Virus record (IMG/VR): IMGVR_UViG_3300021963_000080
Span: 22,562-86,561 of that record
Strand: one strand, 5' to 3'
From: a virus
DNA length: 64,000 nucleotides
The position numbers were made by a program, and so were the translations under genes. Below, piece by piece: positions 1 to 11,878 of this stretch; positions within the stretch are counted from its first letter, which is position 1, and every line of letters starts with the position of its first letter. The notes under the pieces are model-generated. The model made no database searches. It was not told where the DNA came from and saw nothing but the letters and a program-made list of their open reading frames with translations.

Positions 1-1
1 T

Positions 2-115
2 CCAAAGCTGAAAGACAGAATTATGGATGTTGCTGAAGCATTCAACTTCGACGTCAAATTCAAAACAACTCCAGGCAATATGTGGGGTGGTCCTGCATTC
101 ATCGTTAAACTGTAA
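2..115 (+). CDS. 3' end of hypothetical protein (truncated by window edge)
   Basis: Open frame PKLKDRIMDVAEAF...FIVKL* ending just before the AAGGA RBS of the next gene. Confidence 0.6.
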   Translation, partial: PKLKDRIMDVAEAFNFDVKFKTTPGNMWGGPAFIVKL

Positions 116-123
116 GGAATAAT

Positions 124-426
124 ATGCTGACTCAAATCGACGAGCAAATCGAAAAGCTGATGTGGGATTTCATCCACAACGATTGCAAAGTAGGCGATCG
201 CGAGAAGACTGGTTTGGATCCACGTGCGTTCATAGGGACGTTCTGGTATAATTATGATGCAATCATTATCGTGAAGGGTAATGAGCGAGTGCTTAATTAT
301 TATGGTGGTTTTGAATATATTGATGCTGATTATATTCGCGAGTATGGAAACTACGTCGTTTATTCAGCAGAAGCTGATCGTGTGCAAGAAGTGTTGGAAA
401 ATTTGATGGAGACGGAAGATGCCTAA
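124..426 (+). CDS. Hypothetical early protein
   Basis: ORF with AAGGA RBS, overlaps next gene. Confidence 0.8.
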   Translation: MLTQIDEQIEKLMWDFIHNDCKVGDREKTGLDPRAFIGTFWYNYDAIIIVKGNERVLNYYGGFEYIDADYIREYGNYVVYSAEADRVQEVLENLMETEDA

Positions 427-916
427 TTGGTGTATGAATTCATTGCAGATCTCGGGGTCTGTAGAGCAGATTAAGGAAATCAACGAAAAGCTGGAAGCCT
501 GCAAGGGTGAAGACTTTTTCGATATCTTCATCAAGAACGCAAAAGAAGCGGGTAGGGATGAAGACTGGTATTCATACAATCACGAGCACTATGGTTGCAA
601 ATGGAACTGTACTGCTGCGAGCTGGGATGTAGACGGAGACGGAACAACAATCACTATCGCATTTGATAGTCCGTGGGCTCCTCCAATGCAAGTATTTGAA
701 ACGATTCAGAATACTCCAGGCCTCTCTGTATGCGCTCAATACTACGAACCAGGAATGGGATTCGTTGGAGAATATAATGATGGCAGTGACGACTACTATG
801 ATTATGGTGGTTGCACATCAGAAGACATCTATGACAACGTCCCTGCAGAGCTAGTCGATAGCTGGGGAATCTATGAGCAGATGGTAGAGTACGAACAAGA
901 AAATAGCGAAGAATAG
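419..916 (+). CDS. DUF1281/Api92-like ferredoxin-fold protein
   Basis: MPNWCxN start, WY..N..HYGCKW and FDSPWAPP, YYEPGMGF motifs typical of this family. Confidence 0.7.
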   Translation: MPNWCMNSLQISGSVEQIKEINEKLEACKGEDFFDIFIKNAKEAGRDEDWYSYNHEHYGCKWNCTAASWDVDGDGTTITIAFDSPWAPPMQVFETIQNTPGLSVCAQYYEPGMGFVGEYNDGSDDYYDYGGCTSEDIYDNVPAELVDSWGIYEQMVEYEQENSEE

Positions 917-921
917 CCTAG

Positions 922-950
922 TTGACCTTTTATTCGAAATAAAGGACAAT
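922..950 (+). promoter_or_regulatory. Early sigma70-type promoter (copy 1)
   Basis: TTGACC-17 nt-GACAAT; repeated near-identically upstream of several early genes. Confidence 0.8.
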
Positions 951-981
951 GGATCCATAAGTTGAGAAAAGAAAGGGAAAT

Positions 982-1848
982 ATGGAAATTCGTTATGAGG
1001 GCGATCAGTTCGTCGCGGTTAATAATGGTGTTGTTGTAGCAAGCTCTAAGAACAAAGACTATCTCAAGCGCAAAGTTGCTGCGATGGTTGAGTCTATGCC
1101 TGCTAAGCCTAAGGCTGTCGAGCAGTTCGCAATCAATGATCGGTTCACATTCACTGATCAGTTGGTTAAGATGGTTGCTAAGGGGCAGACTGCGTCTTGT
1201 GTTATCACGGGCGAAGGCGGCCTTGGCAAATCATTCACTGTGATGAAGGCCTTGCGCGATGCTGGATTGAAAGATGTATCTGAGCTGCCAATTGGCGAAG
1301 TGATTCCTCCTCGTGGCTGCTTCCGTGTGGTTAAGGGGTTCTCTACAGCGAAGGGCCTGTATCGAATCCTATTTGAGAACCAGAATTCTATTATTGTATT
1401 CGATGATTGTGACTCTATTCTCAAAGATCCAGATGCATTGAACTTGCTGAAGGGTGCGTTGGATTCATATGACAAGCGTTACATCACATGGAATACTAGT
1501 ATTAATGATGATGGGCTGCCTCGTAGCTTTGAATTCAAGGGTGGAGTCGTGTTTGTATCGAATATGAGCTCGGATAAGATCAGCCAAGCTATACGTTCAC
1601 GTGCGATGAATGTCGATTTGTCTATGACTACCGACCAGAAGATCGAGCGTATGGAGACGATTATGCGTTCAGATGAGTTTATGTACGATGTTCCAATGCC
1701 TTTCAAGATTGAGAGCTTGGATTTGATTCGTCAAAACAAGGATACTGCATCGGAAATCTCGTTGAGAACGTTGATTAATGTGACGAAGATCCGCAATTCT
1801 GGCAACAGTAACTGGGCTTCCCTCGCAAAATACATGCTGGTTAACTGA
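982..1848 (+). CDS. P-loop AAA-type ATPase
   Basis: Walker A GEGGLGKS, Walker B IIVFDDCD, arginine-finger-like AIRSR. Confidence 0.8.
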   Translation: MEIRYEGDQFVAVNNGVVVASSKNKDYLKRKVAAMVESMPAKPKAVEQFAINDRFTFTDQLVKMVAKGQTASCVITGEGGLGKSFTVMKALRDAGLKDVSELPIGEVIPPRGCFRVVKGFSTAKGLYRILFENQNSIIVFDDCDSILKDPDALNLLKGALDSYDKRYITWNTSINDDGLPRSFEFKGGVVFVSNMSSDKISQAIRSRAMNVDLSMTTDQKIERMETIMRSDEFMYDVPMPFKIESLDLIRQNKDTASEISLRTLINVTKIRNSGNSNWASLAKYMLVN

Positions 1849-1851
1849 TTG

Positions 1852-1880
1852 TTGACCTTTTGTTCGAAATAATGGACAAT
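1852..1880 (+). promoter_or_regulatory. Early promoter (copy 2)
   Basis: TTGACC-17-GACAAT. Confidence 0.8.
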
Positions 1881-1905
1881 GGGTCATAGTGAAAAAGGAA
1901 TTATT

Positions 1906-2358
1906 ATGAAAACATATTCGAAAAGAACGGTTGTAAACGAGCGAGATGCCCGTAACACCGAGCTGACTGACCGTCTCAACCACTATAATGACTGGTTGAT
2001 GGACGAAAAACGTGAATTTCCTTCCGTTTATCCTGGATACCCCGGCGATAAAGGGAAGAAACCAACTACCGTGGTGGTAGAAAAGCCGAAATCGGCTCCT
2101 GTAAAACGTGAAAAAGGACGTAAATCTGTTATGAGTATTCAAACTGTAGGTATCAAAGTCGCTCGTTCGACTGTAAACAAGGCCCCTAAGGCCGGAACTA
2201 AGCAAGCTAAGGCGATTGAGATCGTTCGTAAGCTCGGTGTTGAGCAAAAAGCTCAGGCAATCGATGCTATTATGAGCGAATTGTCGATGTCTAAGGCTGG
2301 TGCGACGACTTATTTCCACAATAGCCGTCACACAATCGCGCGCGAAGCTTCTAAATGA
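1906..2358 (+). CDS. Basic hypothetical protein, possible C-terminal HTH DNA-binding domain
   Basis: ATG 1906 after AAAGGA; Lys-rich linker, helical C-terminus IDAIMSELSMSKAGATTYF. Confidence 0.7.
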   Translation: MKTYSKRTVVNERDARNTELTDRLNHYNDWLMDEKREFPSVYPGYPGDKGKKPTTVVVEKPKSAPVKREKGRKSVMSIQTVGIKVARSTVNKAPKAGTKQAKAIEIVRKLGVEQKAQAIDAIMSELSMSKAGATTYFHNSRHTIAREASK

Positions 2359-2570
2359 AGTACTGGCTGCTGATTGCCCTGTTCGATTATCAGGGGAATT
2401 TCGTCGGGAAGGTCCAGCAAGGACCATTCCCCGACAAGCCAGCGTGCATTGCTGCGTCTAAAATGACGGCTCCCGTGCTAGGCGATCCCCCTGCAAAGTC
2501 TCGCTGCTTCTCTGACGACCATGTCAAAGGGAAATCAATCGACAAAGGCCCCCCATTCTTGCAAGACTAA
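2355..2570 (+). CDS. Small hypothetical protein with hydrophobic N-terminus
   Basis: ATGA overlap with upstream gene; MKYWLLIAL, two Cys. Confidence 0.65.
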   Translation: MKYWLLIALFDYQGNFVGKVQQGPFPDKPACIAASKMTAPVLGDPPAKSRCFSDDHVKGKSIDKGPPFLQD

Positions 2571-2586
2571 CATTAAGGACATTATA

Positions 2587-2859
2587 ATGTATACAGTATA
2601 TAAATTGACAAACCAGAAAAACCGATCACAGACGTATATCGGAACGACTGGCAACGTTGAAAAGCGAATGGAGTTGCACCAATCGCGAGCTCGAGGTGGT
2701 TTCGGATCGAATCTTCCAATCTCCAAAGCAATTAGCCGTGTGGGATTCAACAACTTCAAACTGACTTTGCTCGCCGAATTCCGCTCGCAGCACCAAGCAC
2801 GTGCGCACGAGCGAGAGTTGATTGACACTTTAGAGCCCACACTCAACGTAAACGCTTGA
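2587..2859 (+). CDS. Stand-alone GIY-YIG nuclease domain protein
   Basis: TVYKLTN...YIGTT...R...H...E...LN pattern; RBS AAGGA before ATG 2587. Confidence 0.75.
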   Translation: MYTVYKLTNQKNRSQTYIGTTGNVEKRMELHQSRARGGFGSNLPISKAISRVGFNNFKLTLLAEFRSQHQARAHERELIDTLEPTLNVNA

Positions 2860-2882
2860 TTTCCCAGGGTTTTATAAACCTG

Positions 2883-2911
2883 TTGACCTTTTTACAAAAT
2901 AAAAGGACAAT
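2883..2911 (+). promoter_or_regulatory. Early promoter (copy 3)
   Basis: TTGACC-17-GACAAT. Confidence 0.8.
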
Positions 2912-2941
2912 GGGGGTATGTTAAATGAGAAAGGGAATGAA

Positions 2942-3211
2942 ATGACGGAATTCGAAAGCAAGTGCTACGGTATCTCTGAAGCCACCATCCGCAAGGAATA
3001 CATGAACTCTTTCACTGGTCGGATGACTGGTGTGGAAATGGTTGCAATGGGTGTTTTGTCAGATGCTCAAGAGCTGATGACGTTTGGTCACGATCAAGCG
3101 CTTGATCAAGCTCGTAAGAATATTAACATCGCTAAGTTCATTCTTTCTGAAATGATGGATGATCGCTTGGCTGCTGATAATTCTAAGAAGATTCACAAGG
3201 TGGCCGCATGA
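2942..3211 (+). CDS. Hypothetical early protein
   Basis: ORF after promoter and AAGGG RBS. Confidence 0.75.
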   Translation: MTEFESKCYGISEATIRKEYMNSFTGRMTGVEMVAMGVLSDAQELMTFGHDQALDQARKNINIAKFILSEMMDDRLAADNSKKIHKVAA

Positions 3212-3234
3212 GCGGTTGGAGGAAAAGACAAATT

Positions 3235-3414
3235 ATGAGTAAAATGTCAGAACTAGCAATCGAGATCGAGGAAGGTATCGAGCAAGGCCAATCAATCGAC
3301 GAATTGGTTGATGGTATTGTTGGATTCGGTCTCTCGAGATCGTATGCATTGAAGTTGGTTAATAACGTTGTTGATTTGTACTGCAAAGAAAAGGACGGCT
3401 ATGAAATTCAGTAA
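3235..3414 (+). CDS. Small hypothetical protein
   Basis: MSKMSELAIEIEE start after GGAGG. Confidence 0.7.
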   Translation: MSKMSELAIEIEEGIEQGQSIDELVDGIVGFGLSRSYALKLVNNVVDLYCKEKDGYEIQ

Positions 3415-3697
3415 AGATGCGTTGGTTAATGGAACGAGCTTTAAGGGTGACTTCTATGCTTACTACCACGAGATCGTAGAGGTCTTTGGTGAGCCAGATC
3501 ATGGCCCGAACAATTTTGAACATGATAAGGTCACATGCGAGTGGGATCTTGAATTCGAAGACGGCACGGTTGCTACGATCTATGATTGGAAGGAACCAGA
3601 AACGCCAATGGGTCGCTATTTGTGGCACATAGGTGGTAAGTCGTACGAGGCCGTAGATCGTGTGCTGGAAACAATGGGCCGGTCTATTGCGGTGTAA
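3401..3697 (+). CDS. Hypothetical protein
   Basis: RBS AAGGA; KVTCEW...ATIYDWK...WHIGG pattern. Confidence 0.75.
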   Translation: MKFSKDALVNGTSFKGDFYAYYHEIVEVFGEPDHGPNNFEHDKVTCEWDLEFEDGTVATIYDWKEPETPMGRYLWHIGGKSYEAVDRVLETMGRSIAV

Positions 3698-3702
3698 AGC
3701 AG

Positions 3703-3731
3703 TTGACCTTTTTTCAAATAAACGGGATAAT
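3703..3731 (+). promoter_or_regulatory. Early promoter (copy 4)
   Basis: TTGACC-17-GATAAT. Confidence 0.8.
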
Positions 3732-3761
3732 GGATTCATAATTTGAAAAAGGGGAACGAAG

Positions 3762-3935
3762 ATGGTTTTTGATGAGATAACGATTGAAGAAGATCCACAG
3801 TACGAAGCATATCAGCTTCAGCTGGAATATCAGCAGTACTTGGAGTCAGATGAGTTCATTGATGAGATAAACGCAGAGTTGCAAATTATCTCTCAACAAG
3901 AAAAAGAACTCAACTCTGTTGACTTCATTGTTTAA
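3762..3935 (+). CDS. 57-aa highly acidic protein (not in ORF track)
   Basis: MVFDEITIEEDPQYEAYQ...DFIV*, after promoter and AAGGGG RBS. Confidence 0.75.
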   Translation: MVFDEITIEEDPQYEAYQLQLEYQQYLESDEFIDEINAELQIISQQEKELNSVDFIV

Positions 3936-3947
3936 TTCAGGGATAAT
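3919..3947 (+). promoter_or_regulatory. Early promoter (variant)
   Basis: TTGACT-17-GATAAT. Confidence 0.7.
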
Positions 3948-3970
3948 CAACTTGTTGGAAAGGAAATAGT

Positions 3971-4120
3971 ATGCGATTCGAAGATATCGTTAAAGTGTTG
4001 ATGGGCGAAGCCCAAGCGGTTGTGGATGCAGTGGAAGCTGCGCTGCAGTCTGATGTGACACAGTCACGCGTCTATAATAAGGGCGTGTTGGCTATGCAGG
4101 TTGAGTTCCAACCAAAATGA
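3971..4120 (+). CDS. 49-aa hypothetical protein (not in ORF track)
   Basis: MRFEDIVKVLMGE...FQPK*, AAAGGA RBS. Confidence 0.65.
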   Translation: MRFEDIVKVLMGEAQAVVDAVEAALQSDVTQSRVYNKGVLAMQVEFQPK

Positions 4121-4520
4121 CGTAGAGCGAGCTCGTCAACTCGCAAAGCCTTAGCCTATCGGGAGATACGCGACAGGCACTATATTGAAGTGCTCTTGTA
4201 AAGCTAGATGCGTGCGCGCATATGTGGAGAGTATTTCAATATGGGTTACCAACTCCAGTAGGGAGTATGCTAGGTACAATGTGATCGACGGATCGCGCCT
4301 GAGCGTACTTCATGAAGCCACCCGACGGTGCTGGAACAAGTTGGCGCGTAATGTGGACCAAACCTAATCGCAAGACGATTGCGTGAGAAGCTGGATGGAG
4401 TTCCAGAACGGTTAGGCCACCCCGTATTGATTAATCCGCAAGGAGAGACCGGGATATCCGGCACCAGTGGGCAGACTGGTGAATTTACCACTTTTTCCCC
4501 CGCCTTGATTTGTCAAGGCC
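4118..4520 (+). ncRNA. Candidate large structured non-coding RNA
   Basis: No credible ORF; more than 10 consecutive stem-loops including GNRA loops and G-U pairs; ends at a terminator. Confidence 0.55.
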
Positions 4521-4526
4521 TTCTCA

Positions 4527-4554
4527 GCCCCCGCATTCGCGGGGGTCTTTTTTT
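4527..4554 (+). terminator. Rho-independent terminator
   Basis: GCCCCCGC-ATTC-GCGGGGGT followed by T run. Confidence 0.85.
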
Positions 4555-4557
4555 GTG

Positions 4558-4586
4558 TTGACCTTTTATCGGAAATAAAGGACAAT
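4558..4586 (+). promoter_or_regulatory. Early promoter (copy 5)
   Basis: TTGACC-17-GACAAT. Confidence 0.8.
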
Positions 4587-4617
4587 GGGGTCATAGTTTG
4601 AAAAAAGGGAGAAAATT

Positions 4618-4956
4618 ATGATGTTGGTTATTCGCACACAATTGATGGAAAACTACGGTGCTCACGACTGGGACGGTGAAGGCGAGTGCCCTCAGTACTG
4701 GAAGATGAAGGGTGGTTCAGAATTCAAGATCGCCAATGTTCCATTAAACATCGACCATGCAGTCGTTGTTGAGATGGCTGGTGTGGAGGAGTCCAACGAT
4801 CACTATCGTGTCTCAATCATCGATTGGTCTATCGAATCTAATGACTATCTCTCTTGGTTTGAGCAATCACAGCTTGACTACGAAGGATTCATTCAATGTA
4901 AAGAGCCCCGAATTGAATATTCGGAATTGCAAGCAAAGTACGCGGAGGCAGTATGA
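4618..4956 (+). CDS. Conserved hypothetical phage protein
   Basis: TQLMENYGAHDWDGEGECPQYWKMKGG motif; GGGAG RBS. Confidence 0.8.
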   Translation: MMLVIRTQLMENYGAHDWDGEGECPQYWKMKGGSEFKIANVPLNIDHAVVVEMAGVEESNDHYRVSIIDWSIESNDYLSWFEQSQLDYEGFIQCKEPRIEYSELQAKYAEAV

Positions 4957-5159
4957 GTTATTTTAAGATGGATCACGGCAGTCCATTTGATCGTGGCAAT
5001 GCAGACAGTTACTACGGAAGACCAAAGGATCCTCACAAGGGTGGCGTTGGTGGAGACTCTGGCCCTAGGGTAGTAGATCTCACTGCACAAGAGCTTTGGC
5101 AATACAATGCTGGGTACGATTACAACGAACTGTTTGGAGATAGAAAATCATGGGATTGA
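4953..5159 (+). CDS. Hypothetical protein
   Basis: HGSPFDRGNADSYYGR motif; ATGA overlap. Confidence 0.75.
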   Translation: MSYFKMDHGSPFDRGNADSYYGRPKDPHKGGVGGDSGPRVVDLTAQELWQYNAGYDYNELFGDRKSWD

Positions 5160-5389
5160 ATGACATTCAAATCGAGGGACTTAGTCCCGTGCAAATGGAG
5201 ATCGCGGACGTCCTATGGAAGTTCGATACACTCGATCAGATTGACTCGTGGATTGCCAAGATTCCTACCCGCAGAGGCCGTATTGACGCTCGCGTAGTGC
5301 AAAACATGATGGTCGCAGCGGTCCTAGATCAGCAAGATCCGGACGTAGAAGAAGCCGGCCACTATTTGCGGGCGATCCAAGGCCGTTGA
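5150..5389 (+). CDS. Hypothetical protein
   Basis: Coupled ORF with GGAG RBS. Confidence 0.7.
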   Translation: MGLNDIQIEGLSPVQMEIADVLWKFDTLDQIDSWIAKIPTRRGRIDARVVQNMMVAAVLDQQDPDVEEAGHYLRAIQGR

Positions 5390-5414
5390 CCTTTTTGTCA
5401 GAAAAGGGGATAAT
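5386..5414 (+). promoter_or_regulatory. Early promoter (copy 6)
   Basis: TTGACC-17-GATAAT. Confidence 0.8.
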
Positions 5415-5443
5415 GGGATATATTAATTCGAAAGGGAAAGAAA

Positions 5444-5572
5444 ATGGATTACGTAGATTTCAGCAAAGACCGTAAATTGGACAAGATTCAAGAGTTCGGT
5501 TTTAAGGCAGTTGGTTATGTGTTGGCGTTTGGTGCCGGCTTTGTGTTTTGCATGTTGGCTTTTGGAGTTTAA
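5444..5572 (+). CDS. 42-aa single-pass membrane protein (not in ORF track)
   Basis: MDYVDFSKDRKLDKIQEFGFKAVGYVLAFGAGFVFCMLAFGV*; AAGGG RBS. Confidence 0.65.
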   Translation: MDYVDFSKDRKLDKIQEFGFKAVGYVLAFGAGFVFCMLAFGV

Positions 5573-5574
5573 TT

Positions 5575-5841
5575 ATGAATATCTCAAATTTGGAACAATA
5601 CGTCGAGCGTAAGAATTCATGGGGTCGTATTTTCAACAGCAAGCAGTTGTCTTTGTTGAATGCGAAGGATCGTCAGTCAATCGCAAATTCAATCGATGCG
5701 GACATGAGTCCTGAGAATTTGACATGCGATGGTGAGTTGCCTCGCAACCAAGTTCGTGCACGTGTCAAGTTCCTCTCTCGCTGTGCTGAGGAGTTGCTGT
5801 CAATCGATCCAAACGTCACTTTTTCTGAGATGGGAGTTTAA
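5575..5841 (+). CDS. Hypothetical protein
   Basis: GGAG RBS before ATG 5575; SPENLTCDGEL motif. Confidence 0.75.
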   Translation: MNISNLEQYVERKNSWGRIFNSKQLSLLNAKDRQSIANSIDADMSPENLTCDGELPRNQVRARVKFLSRCAEELLSIDPNVTFSEMGV

Positions 5842-5843
5842 TT

Positions 5844-6041
5844 ATGTACAACGTCGTTGAAAATCCGATTCCCCGCAGTGGTTTGTTTGCAACTCCGACT
5901 CTGGATCAGATCGCAAACCAGATCGAGGGATTCCCTCCCGAGCAAAAAGCTCAGCTGTATTTGGTGATGCAATTGACACTCAATGCATGTCACCAGCTCG
6001 TGGAAGACAAGATCCTGTCGAAGGAAATCTTCGCATGCTGA
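5844..6041 (+). CDS. Hypothetical protein
   Basis: GGGAG RBS, tight packing. Confidence 0.7.
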   Translation: MYNVVENPIPRSGLFATPTLDQIANQIEGFPPEQKAQLYLVMQLTLNACHQLVEDKILSKEIFAC

Positions 6042-6334
6042 TGTTGGCTGAGCAGACTCAGTGGACTGACGGTCTTAAGAACGGCGTCTATTTGACAGAC
6101 GATTCGAAGTCCAAGATGCTGGGGTTTGCAAAGCACGGGAGTTCTGAATTCAAGATGTTCAAACACCCGATTCGGTTTGACATCAGGGGACGCAAGTTCC
6201 TCGAGCTGATGAGAGTGCCTGATGAACAAGAGGGCAGAAAAGTCGAGGGTTCTAAGGGGGCCGTATATTATGTGCTAGACAATAAGTGCACGTGCCCGGG
6301 TTTTAAATACAGAGGAGAATGCAAGCATGTTTAA
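6035..6334 (+). CDS. SWIM zinc-finger protein
   Basis: C-terminal CTCPGFKYRGECKH (CxC-xn-CxH); start uncertain. Confidence 0.7.
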   Translation: MLMLAEQTQWTDGLKNGVYLTDDSKSKMLGFAKHGSSEFKMFKHPIRFDIRGRKFLELMRVPDEQEGRKVEGSKGAVYYVLDNKCTCPGFKYRGECKHV

Positions 6335-6590
6335 TACACAATCAACATCAAAGGCTAGACTGAAGAACGACACTCTCGGAGAAGACGCTCTGACAGGACT
6401 CTATGATGCATTCGTCAAGATGCCCGATGCGGAGTTCGAAGCTCTCTGCGTCTCAGTCGTACAGGCTGGCGGTGGCAAGCAACCACGCAAGGATGAGATC
6501 ATCGCTGCGATCTACGCTACGAACTCTAAGAGCAGTAAGCTGAAGAAGGCACAGGACTTCATCCTAGCAGGGATGGGACTAGGCGTCTGA
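6327..6590 (+). CDS. Hypothetical protein
   Basis: AGGAG RBS. Confidence 0.7.
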   Translation: MFNTQSTSKARLKNDTLGEDALTGLYDAFVKMPDAEFEALCVSVVQAGGGKQPRKDEIIAAIYATNSKSSKLKKAQDFILAGMGLGV

Positions 6591-6709
6591 CGCTGGGGGC
6601 GAAAGCCCCATGGGGGGGTATTTTAGTTTCCGGATTTATATAACGGCCGTACGTATAATCAACGACCCCCCATTTCATTCCAAATCCGGTTTCTAACTAA
6701 ATCGCAGTC

Positions 6710-6784
6710 TGAAATTTTTTTGCGGGGGGGCTGGTTCCAAATTGCGTTTTATATAAAAGCGCCGGTTGAAATTTTTTTGCGGGG
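6710..6784. repeat. 18-bp direct repeat flanking a 12-bp palindrome
   Basis: TGAAATTTTTTTGCGGGG at 6710 and 6767; TTTTATATAAAA at 6747-6758. Confidence 0.8.
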
Positions 6785-6854
6785 AAAACCACGCAAAGTT
6801 GCCTTTTATAATGTTTTGCTGTATTGTGAGTAAATTAACTAAGGAGAGTGTGTT

Positions 6855-7226
6855 ATGGGGATGTATGTCTACAGAGTAACAAAGGACCGTGTTGTGATTG
6901 ATGGTAGGAAATGTCAGATCGCTATATTTGCCTACAAACCTACTTACAGTGGATCTATGATCGGGGACAAGTATTTGTCTGCTGAACAGATTAATACAAA
7001 GTGGGCATTTAGGTCTGGGTGTATGGCTAAGACTAATATTACTACAGATTACATTGCTATTATGTCTAATGATAAAGTACACTGTACTGTATACGGGAAT
7101 CCTAATAGGCTAAGGACATTCTATGATGATGTTACAATGGGAACCGACAAAATGCCGTATATTGCAAGTTATGAGCTAAGGGAAGGCGTGTATCACTGTT
7201 CTGAGCCGGAGTTACAATATGCTTGA
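6855..7226 (+). CDS. Hypothetical protein
   Basis: AAGGAG RBS. Confidence 0.7.
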   Translation: MGMYVYRVTKDRVVIDGRKCQIAIFAYKPTYSGSMIGDKYLSAEQINTKWAFRSGCMAKTNITTDYIAIMSNDKVHCTVYGNPNRLRTFYDDVTMGTDKMPYIASYELREGVYHCSEPELQYA

Positions 7227-7617
7227 TTGCCTAATACTAGGAGATAGTATTGCAGCTGGGACGCTGAAAGCAAGGCCTGAATGTGTAGGATATGTTCAAA
7301 GCGGTATTAATAGCCATAATTGGTTGAATAAGTTTGTATCTGATTCTCCGTATGTTGCTGGAACTGTTATTATTAGCTTAGGGTCTAATGATTATAAAGA
7401 TATTAAGACCGAGAGTGAATTGAGAGCTATCAGACAATTGACAAAGGGAAATAGGGTATACTGGATTGTTCCTGCAAATAAGCAGAACATCAAAGATATT
7501 GTTTTCAAAATTGCAAACGACTACCATGACCGTGTTGTCAAGATTGCAGATCTCTCTACAGACGGTGTCCATCCTACTGCAAAAGGATATAAGATGATTG
7601 CGGAGCAAACGAAATGA
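7219..7617 (+). CDS. SGNH/GDSL hydrolase (esterase)
   Basis: ILGDSI block I, GSND block III, DGVHP block V. Confidence 0.85.
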   Translation: MLDCLILGDSIAAGTLKARPECVGYVQSGINSHNWLNKFVSDSPYVAGTVIISLGSNDYKDIKTESELRAIRQLTKGNRVYWIVPANKQNIKDIVFKIANDYHDRVVKIADLSTDGVHPTAKGYKMIAEQTK

Positions 7618-7829
7618 CATGGGAACAATATAAAGAAAATTGTACTACTGAGAATTTAGTACAAATAGCGAAAGAAGCTGGATTTGTTTGCCACTACGAT
7701 CCGTTGCATAAATTCCACTCGATTATCGGAAACGATGATGACCTTCGTCGGTTCTATCAACTAACAGCAGGACAGATCATCCTTGAGCAAATCGCGCAAG
7801 ACGCACAGCGTTTAGGACTATACGAATGA
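7614..7829 (+). CDS. Hypothetical protein
   Basis: ATGA overlaps at both ends. Confidence 0.65.
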   Translation: MTWEQYKENCTTENLVQIAKEAGFVCHYDPLHKFHSIIGNDDDLRRFYQLTAGQIILEQIAQDAQRLGLYE

Positions 7830-8011
7830 GCAGCCGGATGCGAGACCAATTCATTGCGTCTGTCCATGTACTAAAAAATCGGCCTCCTTTGCTGAAGGAG
7901 TGCTTGAAGGCAGCGGAAGTGTGGAAAAAAATCGGGGATTTAACAGCAGAGGAATACGACCTTATTATTGCCGCTACTAAAACACCCGCGGTTTTACAGG
8001 GCGTGAAATAA
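7826..8011 (+). CDS. Hypothetical protein
   Basis: Coupled ORF, AGGA RBS. Confidence 0.6.
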   Translation: MSSRMRDQFIASVHVLKNRPPLLKECLKAAEVWKKIGDLTAEEYDLIIAATKTPAVLQGVK

Positions 8012-8025
8012 TTATCAGAAAACTG

Positions 8026-8054
8026 TTGCCTTTTTATTAAAATAACGTTATAAT
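8026..8054 (+). promoter_or_regulatory. sigma70-type promoter
   Basis: TTGCCT-17-TATAAT. Confidence 0.75.
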
Positions 8055-8109
8055 AGAGTCATGGTGAGAAAAACACCTAATCTTATTAACTTGATGAAGG
8101 ATATTTAAA

Positions 8110-9060
8110 ATGGCTCATATGATCGAAACTATTGCATACGCTGGCGAAGTTCCTTGGCACGGTCTTGGCACTAAAGTACCGGCTGATTTGTCCCCTGCGC
8201 AGATGCTTGAGAAAGCAGGACTTGATTGGACAGTCGAGAAAACTCCCGCTTTTGCTAATATTGATGGCAAACAAGTATCAGTCGGCTGGTCCGCTCTGAC
8301 ACGTAGTTCTGATAATTCGATTCTCTCTGTTGTATCAAATGACTGGAATCCAGTCCAGAATCACGAAGCATTCGAATTCTTCGACGAGTATTGTCGCGTT
8401 GGTGATATGGAAATGCATACAGCTGGAAGTTTAAAGGACGGACAGATTGTATGGGGGTTGGCTAAAGTGAAAGACTCATTCGATCTGTTCAAAGGTGACC
8501 AAGTAGATTCATACTTGCTGTTTACTAACCCGCATAAGTTCGGACAGTGTATTGACGTTCGTTTCACTCCTATCCGCGTTGTCTGCAACAACACTCTGAC
8601 ACTTTCGCTTTCACAGAAATCTGACCGCGTTGTAAAGAAAAACCACCGGACAGAATTCAATGCGGCTGAAGTAAAACAAACTCTTGGTATCGCTACCGAG
8701 AAGCTCGCTAAGTATAAAGAGATGGCTGCATTCTTGGGTAGCAAGCGCTATACTGAAGAAACTGCTAAACAATACTTCAACGCCGTGTTCCCTGTTATTG
8801 CATACAACAAGGAAAAAGGACCACAACGCAAAGAGTTGTCCAAGTCTGCTACCCGTGCTTTGGAAGTACTCGGCACTCAACCCGGCGCTCGCTTTGCTGA
8901 GGGTTCGTGGTGGCAAGCATTCAACGCTGTGACATATTTGACCGACCACGAAATCGGTCGCTCACAAGATACTCGTCTACAGTCTGCTTGGTTTGGTGCT
9001 AATAAGAACCTAAAACTGAAAGCGCTCGAGACTGCAGTAGAGTTTGCTGAAGCAGCATAA
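8110..9060 (+). CDS. DUF932 / LGT_TIGR03299 family protein
   Basis: PWHGLG, AGLDWTVEK, VQNHEAF, TPIRVVCNNTL, W.AFNAVT motifs. Confidence 0.85.
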   Translation: MAHMIETIAYAGEVPWHGLGTKVPADLSPAQMLEKAGLDWTVEKTPAFANIDGKQVSVGWSALTRSSDNSILSVVSNDWNPVQNHEAFEFFDEYCRVGDMEMHTAGSLKDGQIVWGLAKVKDSFDLFKGDQVDSYLLFTNPHKFGQCIDVRFTPIRVVCNNTLTLSLSQKSDRVVKKNHRTEFNAAEVKQTLGIATEKLAKYKEMAAFLGSKRYTEETAKQYFNAVFPVIAYNKEKGPQRKELSKSATRALEVLGTQPGARFAEGSWWQAFNAVTYLTDHEIGRSQDTRLQSAWFGANKNLKLKALETAVEFAEAA

Positions 9061-9075
9061 CTCAAACAAACGGTC

Positions 9076-9105
9076 AAGAGGGGGCGTTGCCCCCTTTTCG
9101 TTTTT
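9076..9105 (+). terminator. Terminator overlapping a promoter for the tmRNA
   Basis: GGGGGC-GTT-GCCCCC-TTTT; TTGCCC(9087)-17-TATCAT and GATAAATA (9120) follow. Confidence 0.7.
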
Positions 9106-9132
9106 GTGGTATCATACTGGATAAATAAAGAT

Positions 9133-9447
9133 ATTGTTGTAATCCCTTCAAAGCGAAGGAATTCTGGACGTGGGTTCGACTCCCACCAGGTCCACCAGAA
9201 AGAGTATTATAGTGGGTTCGCAAGTATGAGTCGCATTCTAAAGAGTGCCCTTGAACTGGATATAGTATTCTTCCTAATGGGCCTGCCATGGTTTCGACAG
9301 GGTTAGATAGCAGAGACGGCAACACGGTAGGCGATGACCGTAAATCAAGCAAAATTAATAACTGCAAACGATGAGTTATTCCTAGCAGCTGCTTAATTGC
9401 ACTGCATGAGTTTTGCTAGTTGAACTTGGAAACAGAATCAACTAGCC
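9133..9447 (+). ncRNA. ssrA: Circularly permuted (two-piece) tmRNA, tag (A)ANDELFLAAA
   Basis: Acceptor piece with T-arm GTGGG-TTCGACT-CCCAC and CAGGTCC-ACCA (ends 9197) lies upstream of coding piece GGGCCTG (9279); G3-U70 pair; tag frame 9364-9396; outer ends approximate. Confidence 0.92.
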
Positions 9448-9478
9448 ATTATGTTTAATAACAAAAAAGGTATTTTTT

Positions 9479-9931
9479 ATGAAATTGAAATTAGCATTAG
9501 TTATTGCCTTGCTTACTACATCCGGCATTGCATCAGCAATCGAAGTAGGTATCAACGCAGGCCGCTCATTCACTGGTACTGATCGTAACAACACCGGTAT
9601 CACAATTGGCCAAAAGACTGGCGCAGTTGGAATTGAAGCTGGGTTTGATGCATTCCGTAGTGGTGTAGATCAAAACCGTTGGTCATTGATCGGCTCCTAT
9701 GATGTTACTAAAGTTGCTGGCACAACCGTTGCTGTTAAAGCCGGCGGTGCATGGCTAGACAACAAAGGTACGACAAGTGATGGCTACACCGCTCTTGTTG
9801 GTGCTGGTGCATCATACCCACTATCTAAACAATTAGCATTGACTGCTGACTATAAATATCAGATAGGTCAAAAGCGAGTAGATCAATTCAACGGTAGCAA
9901 CGTTACTGCTGGCTTGAAGTATTCGTTCTAA
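9479..9931 (+). CDS. Outer-membrane beta-barrel protein (OmpA/Ail/Lom-like)
   Basis: Signal peptide (..ASA), alternating beta strands, C-terminal GLKYSF signature. Confidence 0.8.
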   Translation: MKLKLALVIALLTTSGIASAIEVGINAGRSFTGTDRNNTGITIGQKTGAVGIEAGFDAFRSGVDQNRWSLIGSYDVTKVAGTTVAVKAGGAWLDNKGTTSDGYTALVGAGASYPLSKQLALTADYKYQIGQKRVDQFNGSNVTAGLKYSF

Positions 9932-10001
9932 ATACATTGAGGAGTTGATGGATCTCAATAAAACCATCATTTTATAAACACACACAAAAAGGAGACACAC
10001 A

Positions 10002-10217
10002 ATGTCTAAAACTCCATACGAGATTCGTCTCGATCTAATTAAGATGGCTCAAGACCAACTTAACCAAAGGTACTACAATCAGTTCGAAGTGGCAAGACAC
10101 AACGCACAGATTGCTAGCGCACCCTTGAACGAAGTGCCTGATTTTCCAAGCACTGAACAATTGTTACTAGAGGCTGAAAAGCTGAAACAATTCGTAGATA
10201 AAGCTGACAAAAGCTAA
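10002..10217 (+). CDS. Conserved hypothetical T4-like phage protein
   Basis: MSKTPYEIRLDLIKMA...P...EAEKLKQFV; strong AAGGAG RBS. Confidence 0.8.
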   Translation: MSKTPYEIRLDLIKMAQDQLNQRYYNQFEVARHNAQIASAPLNEVPDFPSTEQLLLEAEKLKQFVDKADKS

Positions 10218-10220
10218 ATC

Positions 10221-10241
10221 GGGGGGCGTCAAGCCCCTTTT
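10221..10241 (+). terminator. Rho-independent terminator
   Basis: GGGGC-GTCAA-GCCCC-TTTT. Confidence 0.75.
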
Positions 10242-10242
10242 G

Positions 10243-10250
10243 TATAAATA
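10243..10250 (+). promoter_or_regulatory. T4-type late promoter
   Basis: TATAAATA consensus. Confidence 0.75.
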
Positions 10251-10255
10251 ACCTT

Positions 10256-10879
10256 ATGTTTACTGTAAATAAGCAAACAAAGGTATACGAAAATCCAACT
10301 TGTAGTAGGGCAATAGACGAACACAAGGTGTTCACCAAAAGCTCTCACTACTTTGATAAAGACGGATTTGAATTAACACACGTAGAAAGAGAATTCTACT
10401 ACGTTAATGGGTATACAATAACGGACATACTCAACCACACATGCTGTCAACAACCATGGATGACAGTTAAGTCCGATAATTTTTTATTGGACCATTGCAT
10501 CATACTCCATAGATGCAATTTCGAGGGAGCAGCAAAAGAGCAGCTTCTTTTTTACAAACACCAAGTCCCAACACTAAGCCAGTTGCTACAGTGTAAACAA
10601 AAATGGGGTTTGGATCTTGCACTCGACTACTTCGATGGAGAAGATATGTACGAAGTACTACACGTCGAACAAGATTTCAATACTTTACAGGAGTGTACTG
10701 CCTATAAGGAAAACATCGAGAAGTTTGTCTTTGCCATTGATTGGGAAGACGCAGCAAAGCGATTGATTGCAAGGAAGGACGAATGGTCTTCTTTAATCGG
10801 ATTTGCGCAGAACGATTGGAAAGCTAGATTTTTTGGCTTCCCTAAAGCAGAACTAACCCACAAAGCTCTAGTGTACTAA
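10256..10879 (+). CDS. Hypothetical protein
   Basis: 207-aa ORF directly after late promoter. Confidence 0.75.
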   Translation: MFTVNKQTKVYENPTCSRAIDEHKVFTKSSHYFDKDGFELTHVEREFYYVNGYTITDILNHTCCQQPWMTVKSDNFLLDHCIILHRCNFEGAAKEQLLFYKHQVPTLSQLLQCKQKWGLDLALDYFDGEDMYEVLHVEQDFNTLQECTAYKENIEKFVFAIDWEDAAKRLIARKDEWSSLIGFAQNDWKARFFGFPKAELTHKALVY

Positions 10880-10934
10880 CAGTACCAAACAAATTCCAAG
10901 TACATAGACACATACTAGGCAGAACATCTGCCAG

Positions 10935-10963
10935 TAGACTTTTGTGCCGTTTAATGGTACAAT
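10935..10963 (+). promoter_or_regulatory. sigma70-type promoter
   Basis: TAGACT-17-TACAAT with extended -10 TG. Confidence 0.6.
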
Positions 10964-10993
10964 GATTGGAGCTTTTAAAATTAAGGAGGTATT

Positions 10994-11566
10994 ATGAATA
11001 GGACATCTTATGCGCCTATGCTTAAAAACTTCGAACTTATGTTCAAAGGATTTTTCTTCATCGTAGGTCTTTTAGTAGTCGCTATGTTACTTAACACAGC
11101 AGTCAACGTCAGAATGGACAACTACACTAAAATGACAGGCCTACCAGCTCATATGTCCGTCAAGGAGAAAGAGCAACAAATGCAATGCCTGACGCAGAAC
11201 ATTTATTGGGAAGCAGCATCAGAGCCTTTTGAAGGCAAGGTCGCTGTGGCACAAGTCACTATGAATAGAATGAATAGTGGCAAATTTCCAGAAACTGTTT
11301 GCGGTGTGGTACAACAACGAAATATATTCTACGATAAAGTCGTTTGCCAGTTTTCGTGGTTTTGTGAATCGACATATAAGACAAGACCAGTTCATCCTAA
11401 AATGTGGGATGAGAGTGAGGCTGTAGCAAAGAAAGTATTGTTCGAGGGGTTTAGACTCGATGGTTTGAAAGAGGCTCTATACTACCATGCGGATTACGTC
11501 AATCCAAAATGGAACAAAGAGCGAGTTACTAAAATAGGTCAACATATTTTTTATAAGGATAGATAA
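10994..11566 (+). CDS. Cell wall hydrolase, SleB/Hydrolase_2 family, N-terminal TM anchor
   Basis: CL..NIYWEA..EP..GK.AVAQV..NR, CQFSW, ALYYHADYV.PKW, IGQHIFY. Confidence 0.9.
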   Translation: MNRTSYAPMLKNFELMFKGFFFIVGLLVVAMLLNTAVNVRMDNYTKMTGLPAHMSVKEKEQQMQCLTQNIYWEAASEPFEGKVAVAQVTMNRMNSGKFPETVCGVVQQRNIFYDKVVCQFSWFCESTYKTRPVHPKMWDESEAVAKKVLFEGFRLDGLKEALYYHADYVNPKWNKERVTKIGQHIFYKDR

Positions 11567-11878
11567 ATGGAAAAGTTCGATTTAATTCTAATGGCGTGTA
11601 AGAAGTTCGTAGCTGAAAAGTTCTCACATCTGTCATCGGAAGCTGTCGGGTGGCTAGCAATAGTGTTTATTCATTGTGCTACAATTCCATCGATCCTTTC
11701 ACTAATAATTGGTCTATCAGATAAGCTGCCATCTCTTGATGTTGTTATGTTTGCATGGGGTGGCTTGTTGTTGATGTTTATCAAATCTTTGATACAACGC
11801 GACATGCTTAATATTATTACAATTGGCGTTGGATTTTTTATCCAAGCGTTCTTACTAGCACTGGTCGTGTTTAAATGA
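11567..11878 (+). CDS. Small multi-pass membrane protein (holin candidate)
   Basis: Three hydrophobic segments; adjacent to hydrolase. Confidence 0.6.
   Translation: MEKFDLILMACKKFVAEKFSHLSSEAVGWLAIVFIHCATIPSILSLIIGLSDKLPSLDVVMFAWGGLLLMFIKSLIQRDMLNIITIGVGFFIQAFLLALVVFK

What the first reader, a model, noticed from the sequence alone, without database searches (positions are those of the whole stretch)
4118..4554. Unannotated ~430-nt highly structured non-coding RNA in the early region
Seen: the longest gap without a credible gene in a densely coding region, packed with helices. Examples: TGACG/CGTCA (4118-4138), TATC-GGGA-GATA, GCAC/GTGC, ATGCG/CGCAT, TGGAG/CTCCA, GGAGTATGCT-AGG/CCT-G-AGCGTACTTC (4262-4311) enclosing GTGATC-GACG-GATCGC, AATCG/CGATT, CTGGA/TCCAG, TCC-GCAA-GGA, CCGG/CCGG, CACCAGT/ACTGGTG, GCCTTGA/TCAAGGC, then a terminator. 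G-U pairs and GNRA loops favour a plus-strand RNA. I see no group I or II intron, RNase P or tRNA signature. Inference: a large phage ncRNA, possibly a new class.
Basis: partly seen in the sequence, partly recalled or inferred. Interest (0 to 1): 0.75.

Follow-up and report, generated by a model that had tools for sequence, protein, structure and literature searches.

The report
Structured early RNA of T4-like phage
A 434-base stretch after a tiny early gene of an uncultured T4-like phage is a real, folded non-coding RNA that matches no known RNA family, occurs only in a narrow group of related phages, and has no known function.

Summary
Window 4121-4554 (+) has no credible gene.

Folding energy alone is not exceptional: 5 of 27 control tiles reach z <= -3.5. 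Natural variants give the real support. There are three compensatory pairs, seven one-sided changes that keep + strand pairing, and frameshifting indels in the internal ORFs. Across five homologues of the 5' domain, 94% of cells pair, against 30-46% in slid controls.

Rfam 15 has no match. Contigs from three RNA libraries (two studies) cover parts of the stretch.

The RNA is modular. A 5' core (P1-P3) carries an invariant GGGA hairpin and recurs in three lineages. The 3' pyrimidine tract, hairpin and terminator recur in two. The middle ~240 nt is specific to this lineage. It is absent from 40 of 42 related viral records.

Best reading: a new, lineage-restricted early ncRNA carried in a promoter/terminator cassette, probably a trans-acting protein-binding RNA. 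The mechanism is inferred, not shown.

The scan noted the same stretch once more in an overlapping window, not on other DNA.

The parts
3919..3947 (+). Early sigma-70-type promoter (TTGACT-17-GATAAT) of the repeated early-promoter family. It is the presumed start of the transcript that carries the RNA.
   Evidence: 10 of 12 hexamer matches; family repeats; a homologous promoter sits before the type B unit
3971..4120 (+). 49-aa ORF of unknown function. Its stop codon TGA (4118-4120) lies 6 nt before P1.
   Evidence: 12 homologous protein clusters of 49-67 aa; no Pfam family; window vs L106 differences fall 6 of 9 at third codon positions
4121..4554 (+). The non-coding structured RNA as a whole (434 nt, G+C 0.52)
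4127..4144 (+). P1 hairpin GCGAG/CTCGC. It is conserved in type B as GCGG/CCGC, with no covariation.
   Evidence: helix 1: 100% of cells paired, none of its pairs varies
4148..4178 (+). P2: an outer GCCT/AGGC helix, a GC/GC step, a conserved C.C mismatch, an inner 4-bp stem and an invariant GGGA loop. Motif TAGCC-NNTC-GGGA-GANN-CGC, present in lineages A, B and C.
   Evidence: (compensatory changes at 4151/4175, 4157/4168, 4158/4167)
4180..4244 (+). P3: an 18-bp G.U-rich hairpin with a hypervariable apex (4198-4226; apical ATGCG/CGCAT)
   Evidence: helix 4: 5 of 18 pairs changed on both sides, 93.3% of cells paired
4249..4344 (+). P4-P6 three-way domain: P4 4249-4258/4331-4344, P5 4261-4274/4298-4311 with P5a 4281-4296, and P6 4318-4330. 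It is specific to lineage A.
   Evidence: variants at 4295, 4305 and 4321 keep pairing, while 4277, 4337 and 4338 lie in loops
4353..4420 (+). P7-P9 three-way domain (P7 4353-4364/4410-4420, P8 4369-4383, P9 4391-4406). It is specific to lineage A.
   Evidence: predicted only, with one variant (4367) at an unpaired site
4435..4481 (+). Three short hairpins: P10 (TCC-GCAA-GGA), P11 (CCGG-GATAT-CCGG) and P12 (CACCAGT-GGGCAG-ACTGGTG)
   Evidence: predicted only, no variation seen
4482..4501 (+). Single-stranded pyrimidine-rich tract (CACT..TTTCCC), conserved between lineages A and B. It is a candidate seed or a pairing partner of the P2 loop.
   Evidence: unpaired in the fold; one variant at 4488
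4502..4519 (+). P13 hairpin GCCTTGA/TCAAGGC, conserved in lineage B with a shorter stem
   Evidence: 4515 A>G turns U-A into U.G, tolerated only on the + strand
4527..4554 (+). Intrinsic terminator: an 8-bp stem (7 G-C), a 4-nt loop and a run of 7 T
   Evidence: top-ranked terminator-like site; conserved in lineage B
4558..4586 (+). Next early promoter (TTGACC-17-GACAAT). Together with the terminator it forms a PeSL-like terminator/promoter composite that bounds the cassette.
   Evidence: PeSL concept from the abstract of PMC4122927

Best explanation
Window 4121-4554 (+) is a non-coding, structured RNA.

How it is made: it is the untranslated 3' two-thirds of a roughly 620-nt early transcript. 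The order is early promoter 3919-3947, 49-aa ORF 3971-4120, 434 nt of RNA, then the intrinsic terminator 4527-4554. The unit is one cassette of the phage's hyperplastic early region and is bounded by a terminator/promoter (PeSL-like) composite.

Architecture:
- A conserved 5' core (P1-P3). Its P2 hairpin has an invariant GGGA loop, closing pairs and a C.C mismatch.
- A lineage-specific middle (P4-P12).
- A conserved 3' module: a pyrimidine-rich single strand, P13 and the terminator.

Most likely mechanism: the RNA accumulates early in infection and acts in trans as a protein-binding (decoy or scaffold) RNA. P2 would be the sequence-specific recognition hairpin. The 5' and 3' conserved parts may be held together by pairing of the P2 loop GGGA(GA) with the tail UUUCCC.

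Shown:
- It is non-coding.
- + strand pairings are under selection.
- It matches no known family.
- It is modular and has a narrow distribution.
- Contigs from RNA libraries cover parts of it.

Inferred: the transcript ends, its stability, trans action, a protein partner and the loop-tail contact.

My odds: about 0.85 that it is a selected structured RNA element, and about 0.3 for the protein-binding trans-acting mechanism specifically. The confidence field (0.4) is for the statement as a whole.
For: 1. No gene.
- The six internal ORFs of 42-73 aa show no coding pattern. For example, the 73-aa minus-strand ORF has 7 non-synonymous of 8 variants, with only 1 at a third codon position.
- A 1-nt insertion in L106 and five indels in the X20 contig (1 to 3 nt; the four inside ORF 4185-4367 sum to +5 nt) shift the frames of ORFs 4185-4367 and 4151-4279.
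- blastx against all ORFs of 80 related loci gave no hit.
- The 73-aa ORF has no homologue among 5.8 billion proteins.

2. Structure under selection, lineage A variants (L106 and RNA-library contigs).
- Outside the P3 apex there are 24 variant sites.
- 6 form 3 compensatory pairs (4151/4175, 4157/4168, 4158/4167).
- 7 are one-sided changes that keep a pair on the + strand (4181, 4232, 4234, 4295, 4305, 4321, 4515).
- 9 are unpaired and 2 break one terminal pair.

3. 5' domain in 5 sequences of lineages A and B.
- 94.2% of cells pair and 7 of 38 pairs changed on both sides.
- The covariation score of 0.247 was reached by 0 of 500 shuffles. Slid controls pair at 30-46%.

4. Conservation.
- The RNA is 96.3% identical between the window and L106.
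- The ORF before it is 94.0% identical and the gene after it 76.7%.

5. P2 is the same 31-nt hairpin in a third lineage, behind an unrelated 89-aa gene.

6. No Rfam family.

7. Contigs of three RNA libraries from two studies cover 4170-4395, 4203-4356 and 4106-4408.

8. The promoter and terminator frame the unit, and lineage B has the same layout.
Against: - No partner protein, no target and no phenotype is known. The trans-acting, protein-binding step is pure inference from an invariant hairpin.
- Only three lineages with few, closely related sequences exist, so covariation power is low. The A7 alignment was also fitted to the model structure, which leans towards that structure.
- The middle 240 nt has structural support only from 7 variant sites within one lineage.
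- The folding z-score is matched by 5 of 27 control tiles.
- RNA-library contigs do not prove transcription. DNA can be present in such libraries, and contigs give no strand, ends or level.
- No separate promoter for the RNA was found, so it may simply be a 3'UTR.
- The element is missing from 40 of 42 related viral records, including 7 of 7 that are at least 90% complete. It is therefore dispensable for this phage group.
Confidence: 0.4

Rival explanations
1. Cis-acting structured 3'UTR. The RNA is never a separate molecule. It would stabilise the short early mRNA (and in lineage C another mRNA) against 3' exonucleases and RNase E. Alternatively it would shield an untranslated tail from Rho, or control translation or termination of the tiny ORF, whose stop codon lies 6 nt before P1.
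For: - No own promoter was found between 3971 and 4121.
- The core always directly follows a stop codon, in lineages A and B and in C.
- In C the core follows an unrelated gene, as a portable 3' module would.
- A strong terminator ends the unit.
Against: - 434 nt with about 13 helices is far more than a protective 3' hairpin needs.
- The loop sequence and the C.C mismatch of P2 are invariant across lineages. That points to specific recognition rather than bulk stability.
- The RNA is at least as conserved as the ORF it would serve: 96.3% against 94.0%.
Confidence: 0.25
2. A 3'UTR-derived base-pairing sRNA. Processing would release the 3' module, and the pyrimidine-rich tract (4482-4501) would pair with purine-rich ribosome-binding sites of host or phage mRNAs, with Hfq bound at the U-tailed terminator.
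For: - The 3' module (single-stranded tract, small hairpin, terminator with 7 U) is conserved between lineages A and B.
- Its only Rfam resemblances, all below threshold, are to the 3' ends of Hfq-type sRNAs: anti-hemB at 27 bits against 49.5 needed, plus Hrs1, mmgR and MicL.
Against: - No target was found. The longest perfect complement in the 86.5-kb record is 13 nt, lies elsewhere in the RNA, and matches my chance estimate of about one.
- The host is unknown, so host targets were not testable.
- This reading leaves the conserved 5' core unexplained.
Confidence: 0.13
3. A catalytic RNA or intron-like mobile RNA (a group I-like or other ribozyme) that processes itself or its transcript.
For: - Its size, multi-junction fold and GNRA loops (GGGA, GCAA).
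- It lies in a region that holds a GIY-YIG endonuclease gene 1.3 kb upstream.
Against: - No match to any ribozyme or intron model at E <= 10.
- The ORF before it ends at the same place in both lineages, and the frame beyond the stop is not shared, so no split gene is evident.
- No reverse transcriptase is encoded in the record.
Confidence: 0.05
4. Not a functional RNA. It would be a decaying gene or neutral spacer whose hairpins are chance, or it would serve only at DNA level (for example as an origin or R-loop primer region).
For: - Other tiles of the early region fold as far below their shuffles: 5 of 27.
- The element is missing from most relatives.
Against: - Compensatory changes and wobble-preserving changes specific to the + strand.
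- Identity is higher than in the flanking genes.
- There is no blastx or protein trace of a former gene.
- Neither a DNA-level reading nor a spacer reading predicts the G.U-dependent pattern.
Confidence: 0.07
5. Unrecognised small protein gene or genes in the stretch, for example the minus-strand 73-aa ORF 4270-4491, which has a GGGGG-AAAAA-GTG start region.
For: - ORFs of 42-73 aa exist on both strands.
- The minus-strand ORF has a Shine-Dalgarno-like run before its GTG (read).
Against: - 7 of 8 variants in that ORF are non-synonymous, and only 1 lies at a third codon position.
- It has no homologue in the protein database.
- Read by eye from the L034 sequence, lineage B shows a stop after six codons at the matching place.
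- No minus-strand promoter was found from 4554 up to about 7390.
- Other ORFs are frameshifted in variants.
Confidence: 0.03

Closest known systems
3'UTR-embedded or 3'UTR-derived bacterial and phage regulatory RNAs, such as Hfq-type sRNAs cut from mRNA 3' ends (recalled knowledge; weak Rfam echo anti-hemB RF02837)
   Same: - It lies after a stop codon and shares the mRNA's intrinsic terminator.
- It has a conserved single-stranded tract and a small hairpin just before the terminator.
   Different: - It is four to five times longer and has a conserved multi-helix 5' core.
- No target or Hfq link is known.
- It scores 27 bits against a gathering score of 49.5, so it is not a member.
Large orphan structured RNAs often carried by phages, such as GOLLD, ROOL and HEARO (abstract of bioRxiv 10.1101/2024.12.08.627333 seen in the listing; otherwise recalled)
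   Same: It is a phage-borne, multi-junction, non-coding RNA of hundreds of nucleotides with unknown function, recognised from sequence alone.
   Different: - No match to their Rfam models.
- It is smaller and far narrower in distribution.
- Its middle part is variable.
- It is co-transcribed with a tiny ORF in an early cassette rather than sitting beside tRNA arrays.
PeSL cassettes of T4-like phages (Comeau, Arbiol and Krisch 2014, PMC4122927, abstract read; Arbiol et al. 2010, PMC2839356, listing only)
   Same: - A terminator stem-loop is directly followed by a repeated early promoter (4527-4586).
- It lies in a hyperplastic early region of a T4-like phage.
- Neighbouring modules are mosaic: 96% against 77% identity.
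   Different: As described in that abstract, PeSLs are the shuffling joints between swapped divergent genes. Here the cargo of the cassette is mostly a structured RNA.
Protein-recognition RNA hairpins of phages, such as lambda boxB / N (recalled, not tested)
   Same: It is a short stem with a GNRA-type loop whose loop and closing pairs are invariant while the stem covaries.
   Different: - No boxA-like partner and no N-like protein were identified.
- The hairpin lies at the 3' side of genes and before a terminator, not in a leader.

Membership tests
Any Rfam 15 family (4227 models, including group I/II introns, RNase P, tmRNA, SRP, 6S, Y RNA, riboswitches and small ribozymes) | Covariance-model score at or above the family's gathering score | tested here: not met
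   - The whole window at gathering thresholds gave only the tmRNA at 9090-9461.
- Permissive searches at E <= 10 on 3900-4700 and 4110-4500 gave nothing in 4121-4490 except two minus-strand chance hits (13-22 bits against 50-70 needed).
- Homologues in L034 and L086 gave the same result.
Group I intron | Interrupts a gene whose exons join into one reading frame | tested here: not met
   - The upstream ORF ends at the same residue region in 14 aligned homologues.
- Read by eye from the DNA alignment, the reading frame past the stop differs by one base between lineages A and B.
- No downstream exon candidate was found by blastx.
anti-hemB sRNA (RF02837) | Score of at least 49.5 bits over the full model | tested here: not met
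   27.0 bits in the window and 20.1 bits in L034. Only the two 3' hairpins and the U-tail align.
Hfq-type 3'UTR-derived sRNA (working likeness, not a sequence family) | Intrinsic terminator with a U-tail preceded by a conserved single-stranded seed | tested here: met
   The terminator has 7 T. The tract at 4482-4501 is conserved between lineages A and B and is unpaired in the fold.
Hfq-type 3'UTR-derived sRNA (working likeness, not a sequence family) | A conserved complementary target site | tested here: inconclusive
   Nothing beyond chance was found in the phage record: one 13-mer, against about one expected by my estimate. The host genome is unknown.
CsrB/RsmZ-type protein sponge | Many GGA motifs, enriched and placed in hairpin loops | tested here: not met
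   10 GGA against 8.05 expected (505 of 2000 shuffles reach this). GGAG: 5 against 2.27 expected (144 of 2000).
Retron msr-msd RNA | An adjacent reverse transcriptase gene | tested here: not met
   PF00078 was not found in the 86.5-kb record, while the control genomes rang. The record is about 51% complete.
Y RNA / YrlA | A Ro60 (TROVE) gene nearby and a Y RNA model match | tested here: not met
   PF05731 was not found, while the controls rang. There is no Rfam match.
RegB (T4) cleavage substrate | The phage encodes the RegB endoribonuclease, and GGAG sites are exposed | tested here: inconclusive
   PF10715 was not found, but the control search rang nowhere, so the test is blind. GGAG occurs 5 times, which is not significant. 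The GGAG specificity of RegB is recalled, not looked up.
PeSL terminator/promoter composite (context of the cassette) | A stem-loop terminator immediately followed by a repeated early promoter in a T4-like hyperplastic region | tested here: met
   - The terminator at 4527-4554 is followed by the promoter at 4558-4586.
- The promoter segment recurs 5 more times in the record.
- T4-like kinship: the gp6-like baseplate wedge is 38.7% identical to that of Caulobacter phage Cr30.
- The definition comes from the abstract of PMC4122927.

The most novel reading that the evidence does not exclude
A new class of large, tertiary-folded phage RNA. The conserved 5' core and 3' module would be clasped by pairing of the P2 loop GGGA with the tail UCCC, around an exchangeable middle domain. 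Made in the first minutes of infection, it would capture or mimic the substrate of a host RNA-binding protein or nuclease, giving an RNA-only host-takeover or anti-defence factor carried as a mobile PeSL cassette.
Probability: 0.2. Interest if true: 0.8.

Novelty: new variant of a known kind. Interest (0 to 1): 0.52.

Why it matters
Phage early regions are read almost entirely as collections of small proteins. Here a whole early cassette of a T4-like phage is devoted mainly to a folded RNA.

That would add RNA cargo to the known shuffling of early modules. If a partner is found, it would give a new example of RNA-based host manipulation.

The invariant P2 hairpin is a ready handle for pull-downs. 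The narrow distribution and the unknown host limit the immediate reach.

Tried and rejected
**Homologue hunting**
- blastn against 50,697 GenBank phage records found no match.
- nhmmer against 80 loci that carry the downstream gene hit only L034.
- Five IMG/VR pattern scans added only the L034 contig and the lineage C contigs. All other matches were chance hits in G+C-rich coding DNA or ribosome-binding-site hairpins (with 23, 45, 56).
- The single metagenome scan gave 4 true matches and 1 chance match.
- The single genome scan gave 15 chance matches.
- A protein-guided IMG/VR scan with the small-ORF alignment confirmed none of 90 pattern matches.
- Models R1 and R2 found nothing new in about 0.6 Mb of loci, in the own record, or in 42 whole related records.

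**Alignment of the middle part**
- The middle of lineage A against that of lineage B is not significant: 79 of 300 shuffles score as high.
- A MAFFT alignment of the 5' domain misplaced the 3' arm of P3. It was replaced by the model-guided alignment.

**Readings rejected**
- Stop-codon read-through or frameshift extension of the 49-aa ORF. Read by eye, extensions are short, and the frame differs by one base between lineages in the alignment.
- Internal ORFs.
- CsrA sponge.
- Retron.
- Y RNA.
- RegB substrate: the test was blind.
- Antisense target within the phage.

**RNA libraries**
- The flanks of the stretch have no cover from near-identical contigs in X15 and X19.
- Contigs of X15 and X19 end at 4356-4358, one of them in adapter sequence.
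The DNA run X13 does not cover that place either.

**Literature**
- One full-text search found 85 papers holding at least 4 of 5 terms. None of the 15 listed titles concerns this RNA. That does not show it is unpublished.

As a result the contigs behind the 12 small-protein clusters, which are the best source of more RNA homologues, could not be fetched.
Full report
**Setting**

The window is the right-hand 64 kb of an 86.5-kb IMG/VR virus record judged about 51% complete. Its structural genes are T4-like: the 598-aa baseplate wedge protein is 38.7% identical to that of Caulobacter phage Cr30.

The first 9 kb are a dense run of small + strand genes. A repeated sigma-70-type promoter, GTTGAC(C/T)-17-GA(C/T)AAT, drives many of them.

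The finding lies in one such unit:
- promoter 3919-3947
- a 49-aa ORF at 3971-4120
- 434 nt without a credible gene
- a small hairpin at 4502-4519
- the best terminator-like site of the region at 4527-4554
- the next promoter three bases later, at 4558-4586

A terminator directly followed by a repeated early promoter is what Comeau, Arbiol and Krisch call a PeSL, the joint at which T4-like phages shuffle early modules (abstract of PMC4122927).

Yes. Four of them compete with better supported helices.

The + strand folds to -162.9 kcal/mol with z = -3.64. The - strand gives z = -2.36.

Energy alone does not set the stretch apart. In a tiling of window 1-11799 with 25 shuffles per tile, 5 of 27 tiles reach z <= -3.5, against -4.38 for the target. 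The target does have the lowest energy and the highest G+C (0.52).

**Is it coding?**

No sign of it.
- ORFs of 42-73 aa exist on both strands.
- blastx of the stretch against every ORF of 80 related loci gave nothing.
- The longest ORF, 73 aa on the minus strand, has no homologue among 5.8 billion proteins.
- Natural variants hit that ORF with 7 non-synonymous changes of 8, only one at a third codon position.
- ORFs 4185-4367 and 4151-4279 are frameshifted by a 1-nt insertion in L106 and by indels of 1 to 3 nt in an RNA-library contig; the four inside ORF 4185-4367 sum to +5 nt.
- For contrast, the real flanking genes show third-position excess: 6 of 9 and 34 of 57 differences.
- Read-through of the 49-aa ORF is excluded. 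Read by eye from the alignment, the frame past the stop differs by one base between the two lineages that share the RNA.

**Homologues**

GenBank phages hold nothing similar.

Of 80 IMG/VR loci that carry the downstream 112-aa gene, only L034 has a related stretch.

Pattern scans of IMG/VR, JGI metagenomes and GTDB genomes added:
- a near-identical variant of the window's RNA (L106)
- three variants of the L034 form (L102 partial, L103, L104)
- otherwise only chance matches

A covariance model of the 5' domain (R1) then found a third, more distant form in L086. It lies at the syntenic place, about 190 nt upstream of the homologue of the 112-aa gene.

Searching 42 whole related viral records with R1 found the element only in those same two records. 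It was absent from 7 of 7 records that are at least 90% complete. It is single-copy in its own record.

This gives three lineages:
- A: this phage, 434 nt.
- B: about 280 nt.
- C: only an 80-115-nt core, followed directly by a promoter.

**Anatomy**

A and B share the first ~125 nt (P1, P2, P3) and the last ~70 nt. The last part is a pyrimidine-rich single strand CACU..UUUCCC, hairpin P13 and the terminator.

The middle differs. A has ~240 nt, predicted to form two three-way junctions (P4-P6, P7-P9) and three short hairpins (P10-P12). B has ~110 nt, and its alignment to A is not significant: 79 of 300 shuffles score as high.

P2 is the most striking part. The string UAGCC-NNUC-GGGA-GANN-CGC recurs in A, B and C with an invariant GGGA loop, invariant closing pairs and a conserved C.C mismatch. 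Its inner stem reads UAUC/GAUA, AUUC/GAAU or ACUC/GAGU. A model of P2 alone finds no further copy in 0.65 Mb of related DNA.

**Selection on pairing**

Window against L106 shows 16 substitutions and one indel:
- four make two compensatory pairs in P2
- two turn Watson-Crick pairs into G.U (4321, 4515)
- one breaks a pair in the variable apex of P3
- nine are unpaired

A divergent contig from RNA library X20 (4106-4408) adds:
- a U-A to G-C exchange at 4151/4175
- U.G to C-G at 4181, 4232 and 4234
- G.U to A-U at 4305

A contig of X15 adds G.U to A-U at 4295.

Outside the hypervariable P3 apex (4198-4226) there are 24 variant sites in all:
- 6 in 3 compensatory pairs
- 7 one-sided and pair-preserving
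- 9 unpaired
- 2 that break one terminal pair

All seven one-sided changes keep a pair only if the + strand is the RNA.

On the model-guided alignment of five A and B sequences:
- 94.2% of cells pair (shuffled mean 87.3%; slid controls 30-46%)
- 7 of 38 pairs changed on both sides
- the covariation score of 0.247 was reached by 0 of 500 shuffles

Caveats:
- the five sequences are two clusters of close relatives
- the alignment was fitted to the structure
- P1 never varies
- the helices of the middle domain rest on only seven variant sites within lineage A

Lineage B variants behave the same way. G.U to A-U and A-U to G.U changes keep pairs, and one change breaks a doubtful pair.

The RNA is also at least as conserved as its neighbours. 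It is 96.3% identical between the window and L106, and 98.3% in the middle. The ORF before it is 94.0% identical and the gene after it 76.7%.

**Known families**

- Rfam 15 at gathering thresholds finds only the phage's two-piece tmRNA at 9090-9461.
- Permissive searches (E <= 10) of the window stretch and of the B and C homologues return only sub-threshold, terminator-type resemblances. The best is anti-hemB at 27 bits against 49.5 needed.
- GGA and GGAG motifs are not enriched.
- No reverse transcriptase or Ro60 gene is in the record.
- A RegB search was blind, because its control rang nowhere.

**Expression**

Logan contigs of three metatranscriptomic libraries from two studies lie on the stretch:
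- X15 at 4170-4336 and 4307-4395
- X19 at 4203-4356
- X20 at 4106-4408, a divergent variant

These show that the sequence is in RNA libraries. They do not show the strand, the ends or the level, and DNA carry-over cannot be excluded. No promoter was detected on the minus strand from 4554 up to about 7390, and none inside the ORF.

**Interpretation**

I take as well supported (about 0.85) that this is a selected, + strand, non-coding structured RNA element with no known family. It is carried in a PeSL-bounded early cassette of a narrow clade of uncultured freshwater or estuarine T4-like phages.

How it works is inference.

*Best reading, about 0.3 for the mechanism.* The invariant loop, closing pairs and mismatch of P2, kept across lineages whose flanking proteins are only 44% identical, look like a sequence-specific recognition site. 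The co-conservation of the 5' core and 3' module around an exchangeable middle suggests one folded particle. The P2 loop GGGA(GA) can pair with the conserved tail UUUCCC, but both are invariant, so this cannot be tested by covariation. I therefore favour a stable, trans-acting protein-binding RNA.

*Main rival, 0.25.* A purely cis-acting 3'UTR. The core always follows a stop codon and has no promoter of its own.

*Second rival, 0.13.* A 3'UTR-derived base-pairing sRNA that uses the pyrimidine tract. No target above chance exists in the phage record, and the host is unknown.

*Minor rivals.* Ribozyme or intron, neutral spacer, and hidden gene readings are each at or below 0.07.

**Novelty and interest**

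No family match was found, and one literature search gave no trace of this RNA (which is not proof). At family level it is new. As a kind of thing, a phage-encoded structured RNA sharing an mRNA's terminator, it has precedents.

Its narrow spread, unknown host and unknown function keep the interest moderate. The modular architecture, the invariant hairpin and the cassette context make it a tractable candidate.

The most useful missing computation was fetching the contigs behind the 12 small-protein clusters.

Noticed in passing
window 9090-9461 (+): Phage-encoded circularly permuted (two-piece) tmRNA with tag peptide ANDELFLAAA. It matches Rfam beta_tmRNA (141.8 bits) and tmRNA_permuted (145.2 bits). 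A DUF932 gene (8110-9060) precedes it.
   Followed up: partly
window 4527-4586 and promoter copies at 922, 1852, 2883, 3703, 5386: The terminator stem-loop followed at once by a repeated early promoter looks like the PeSL shuffling joints of T4-like phages. The roughly 45-nt promoter segment recurs 5 more times in the record.
   Followed up: partly
window 3497-3933, 10052-10925, 1749-2185, 9615-10051: These tiles fold as far below their dinucleotide shuffles as the target does (z from -3.5 to -5.1 with 25 shuffles). They were not examined for conserved structure.
   Followed up: no
L086:3808-3969: In lineage C the RNA core is followed by two consensus promoters (TTGACA-17-TATAAT). They lie about 130 nt apart, with a roughly 100-nt ORF-less, hairpin-rich stretch between them. 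This may be a short RNA of its own.
   Followed up: no
L117, L120, L127-L129 (Photobacterium genomes); L109, L115 (viral contigs): A P2-like string (TAGCC-NNTC-GGGA-GANN-CGC) occurs 3-4 nt upstream of an ATG. It looks like a hairpin that hides a GGGAGA ribosome-binding site. It is probably unrelated to the phage RNA, but it shows the same hairpin used as a translation element.
   Followed up: no
window 3840-4862 vs L106: Sharp mosaicism. The small ORF and the RNA are 94-96% identical, and the promoter regions 100%. The 112-aa gene just downstream is only 76.7% identical, consistent with exchange at the terminator/promoter joint.
   Followed up: partly
window 2521-2859 (+): A free-standing GIY-YIG endonuclease gene (Pfam E = 3.2e-11) lies in the early region, 1.3 kb upstream of the RNA.
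   Followed up: no
window 4356-4368 vs 22133-22145: A 13-nt perfect complementarity links the RNA (the junction before P8) and the + strand of the 436-aa gene at 21653-22963. By my estimate about one such match is expected by chance.
   Followed up: no
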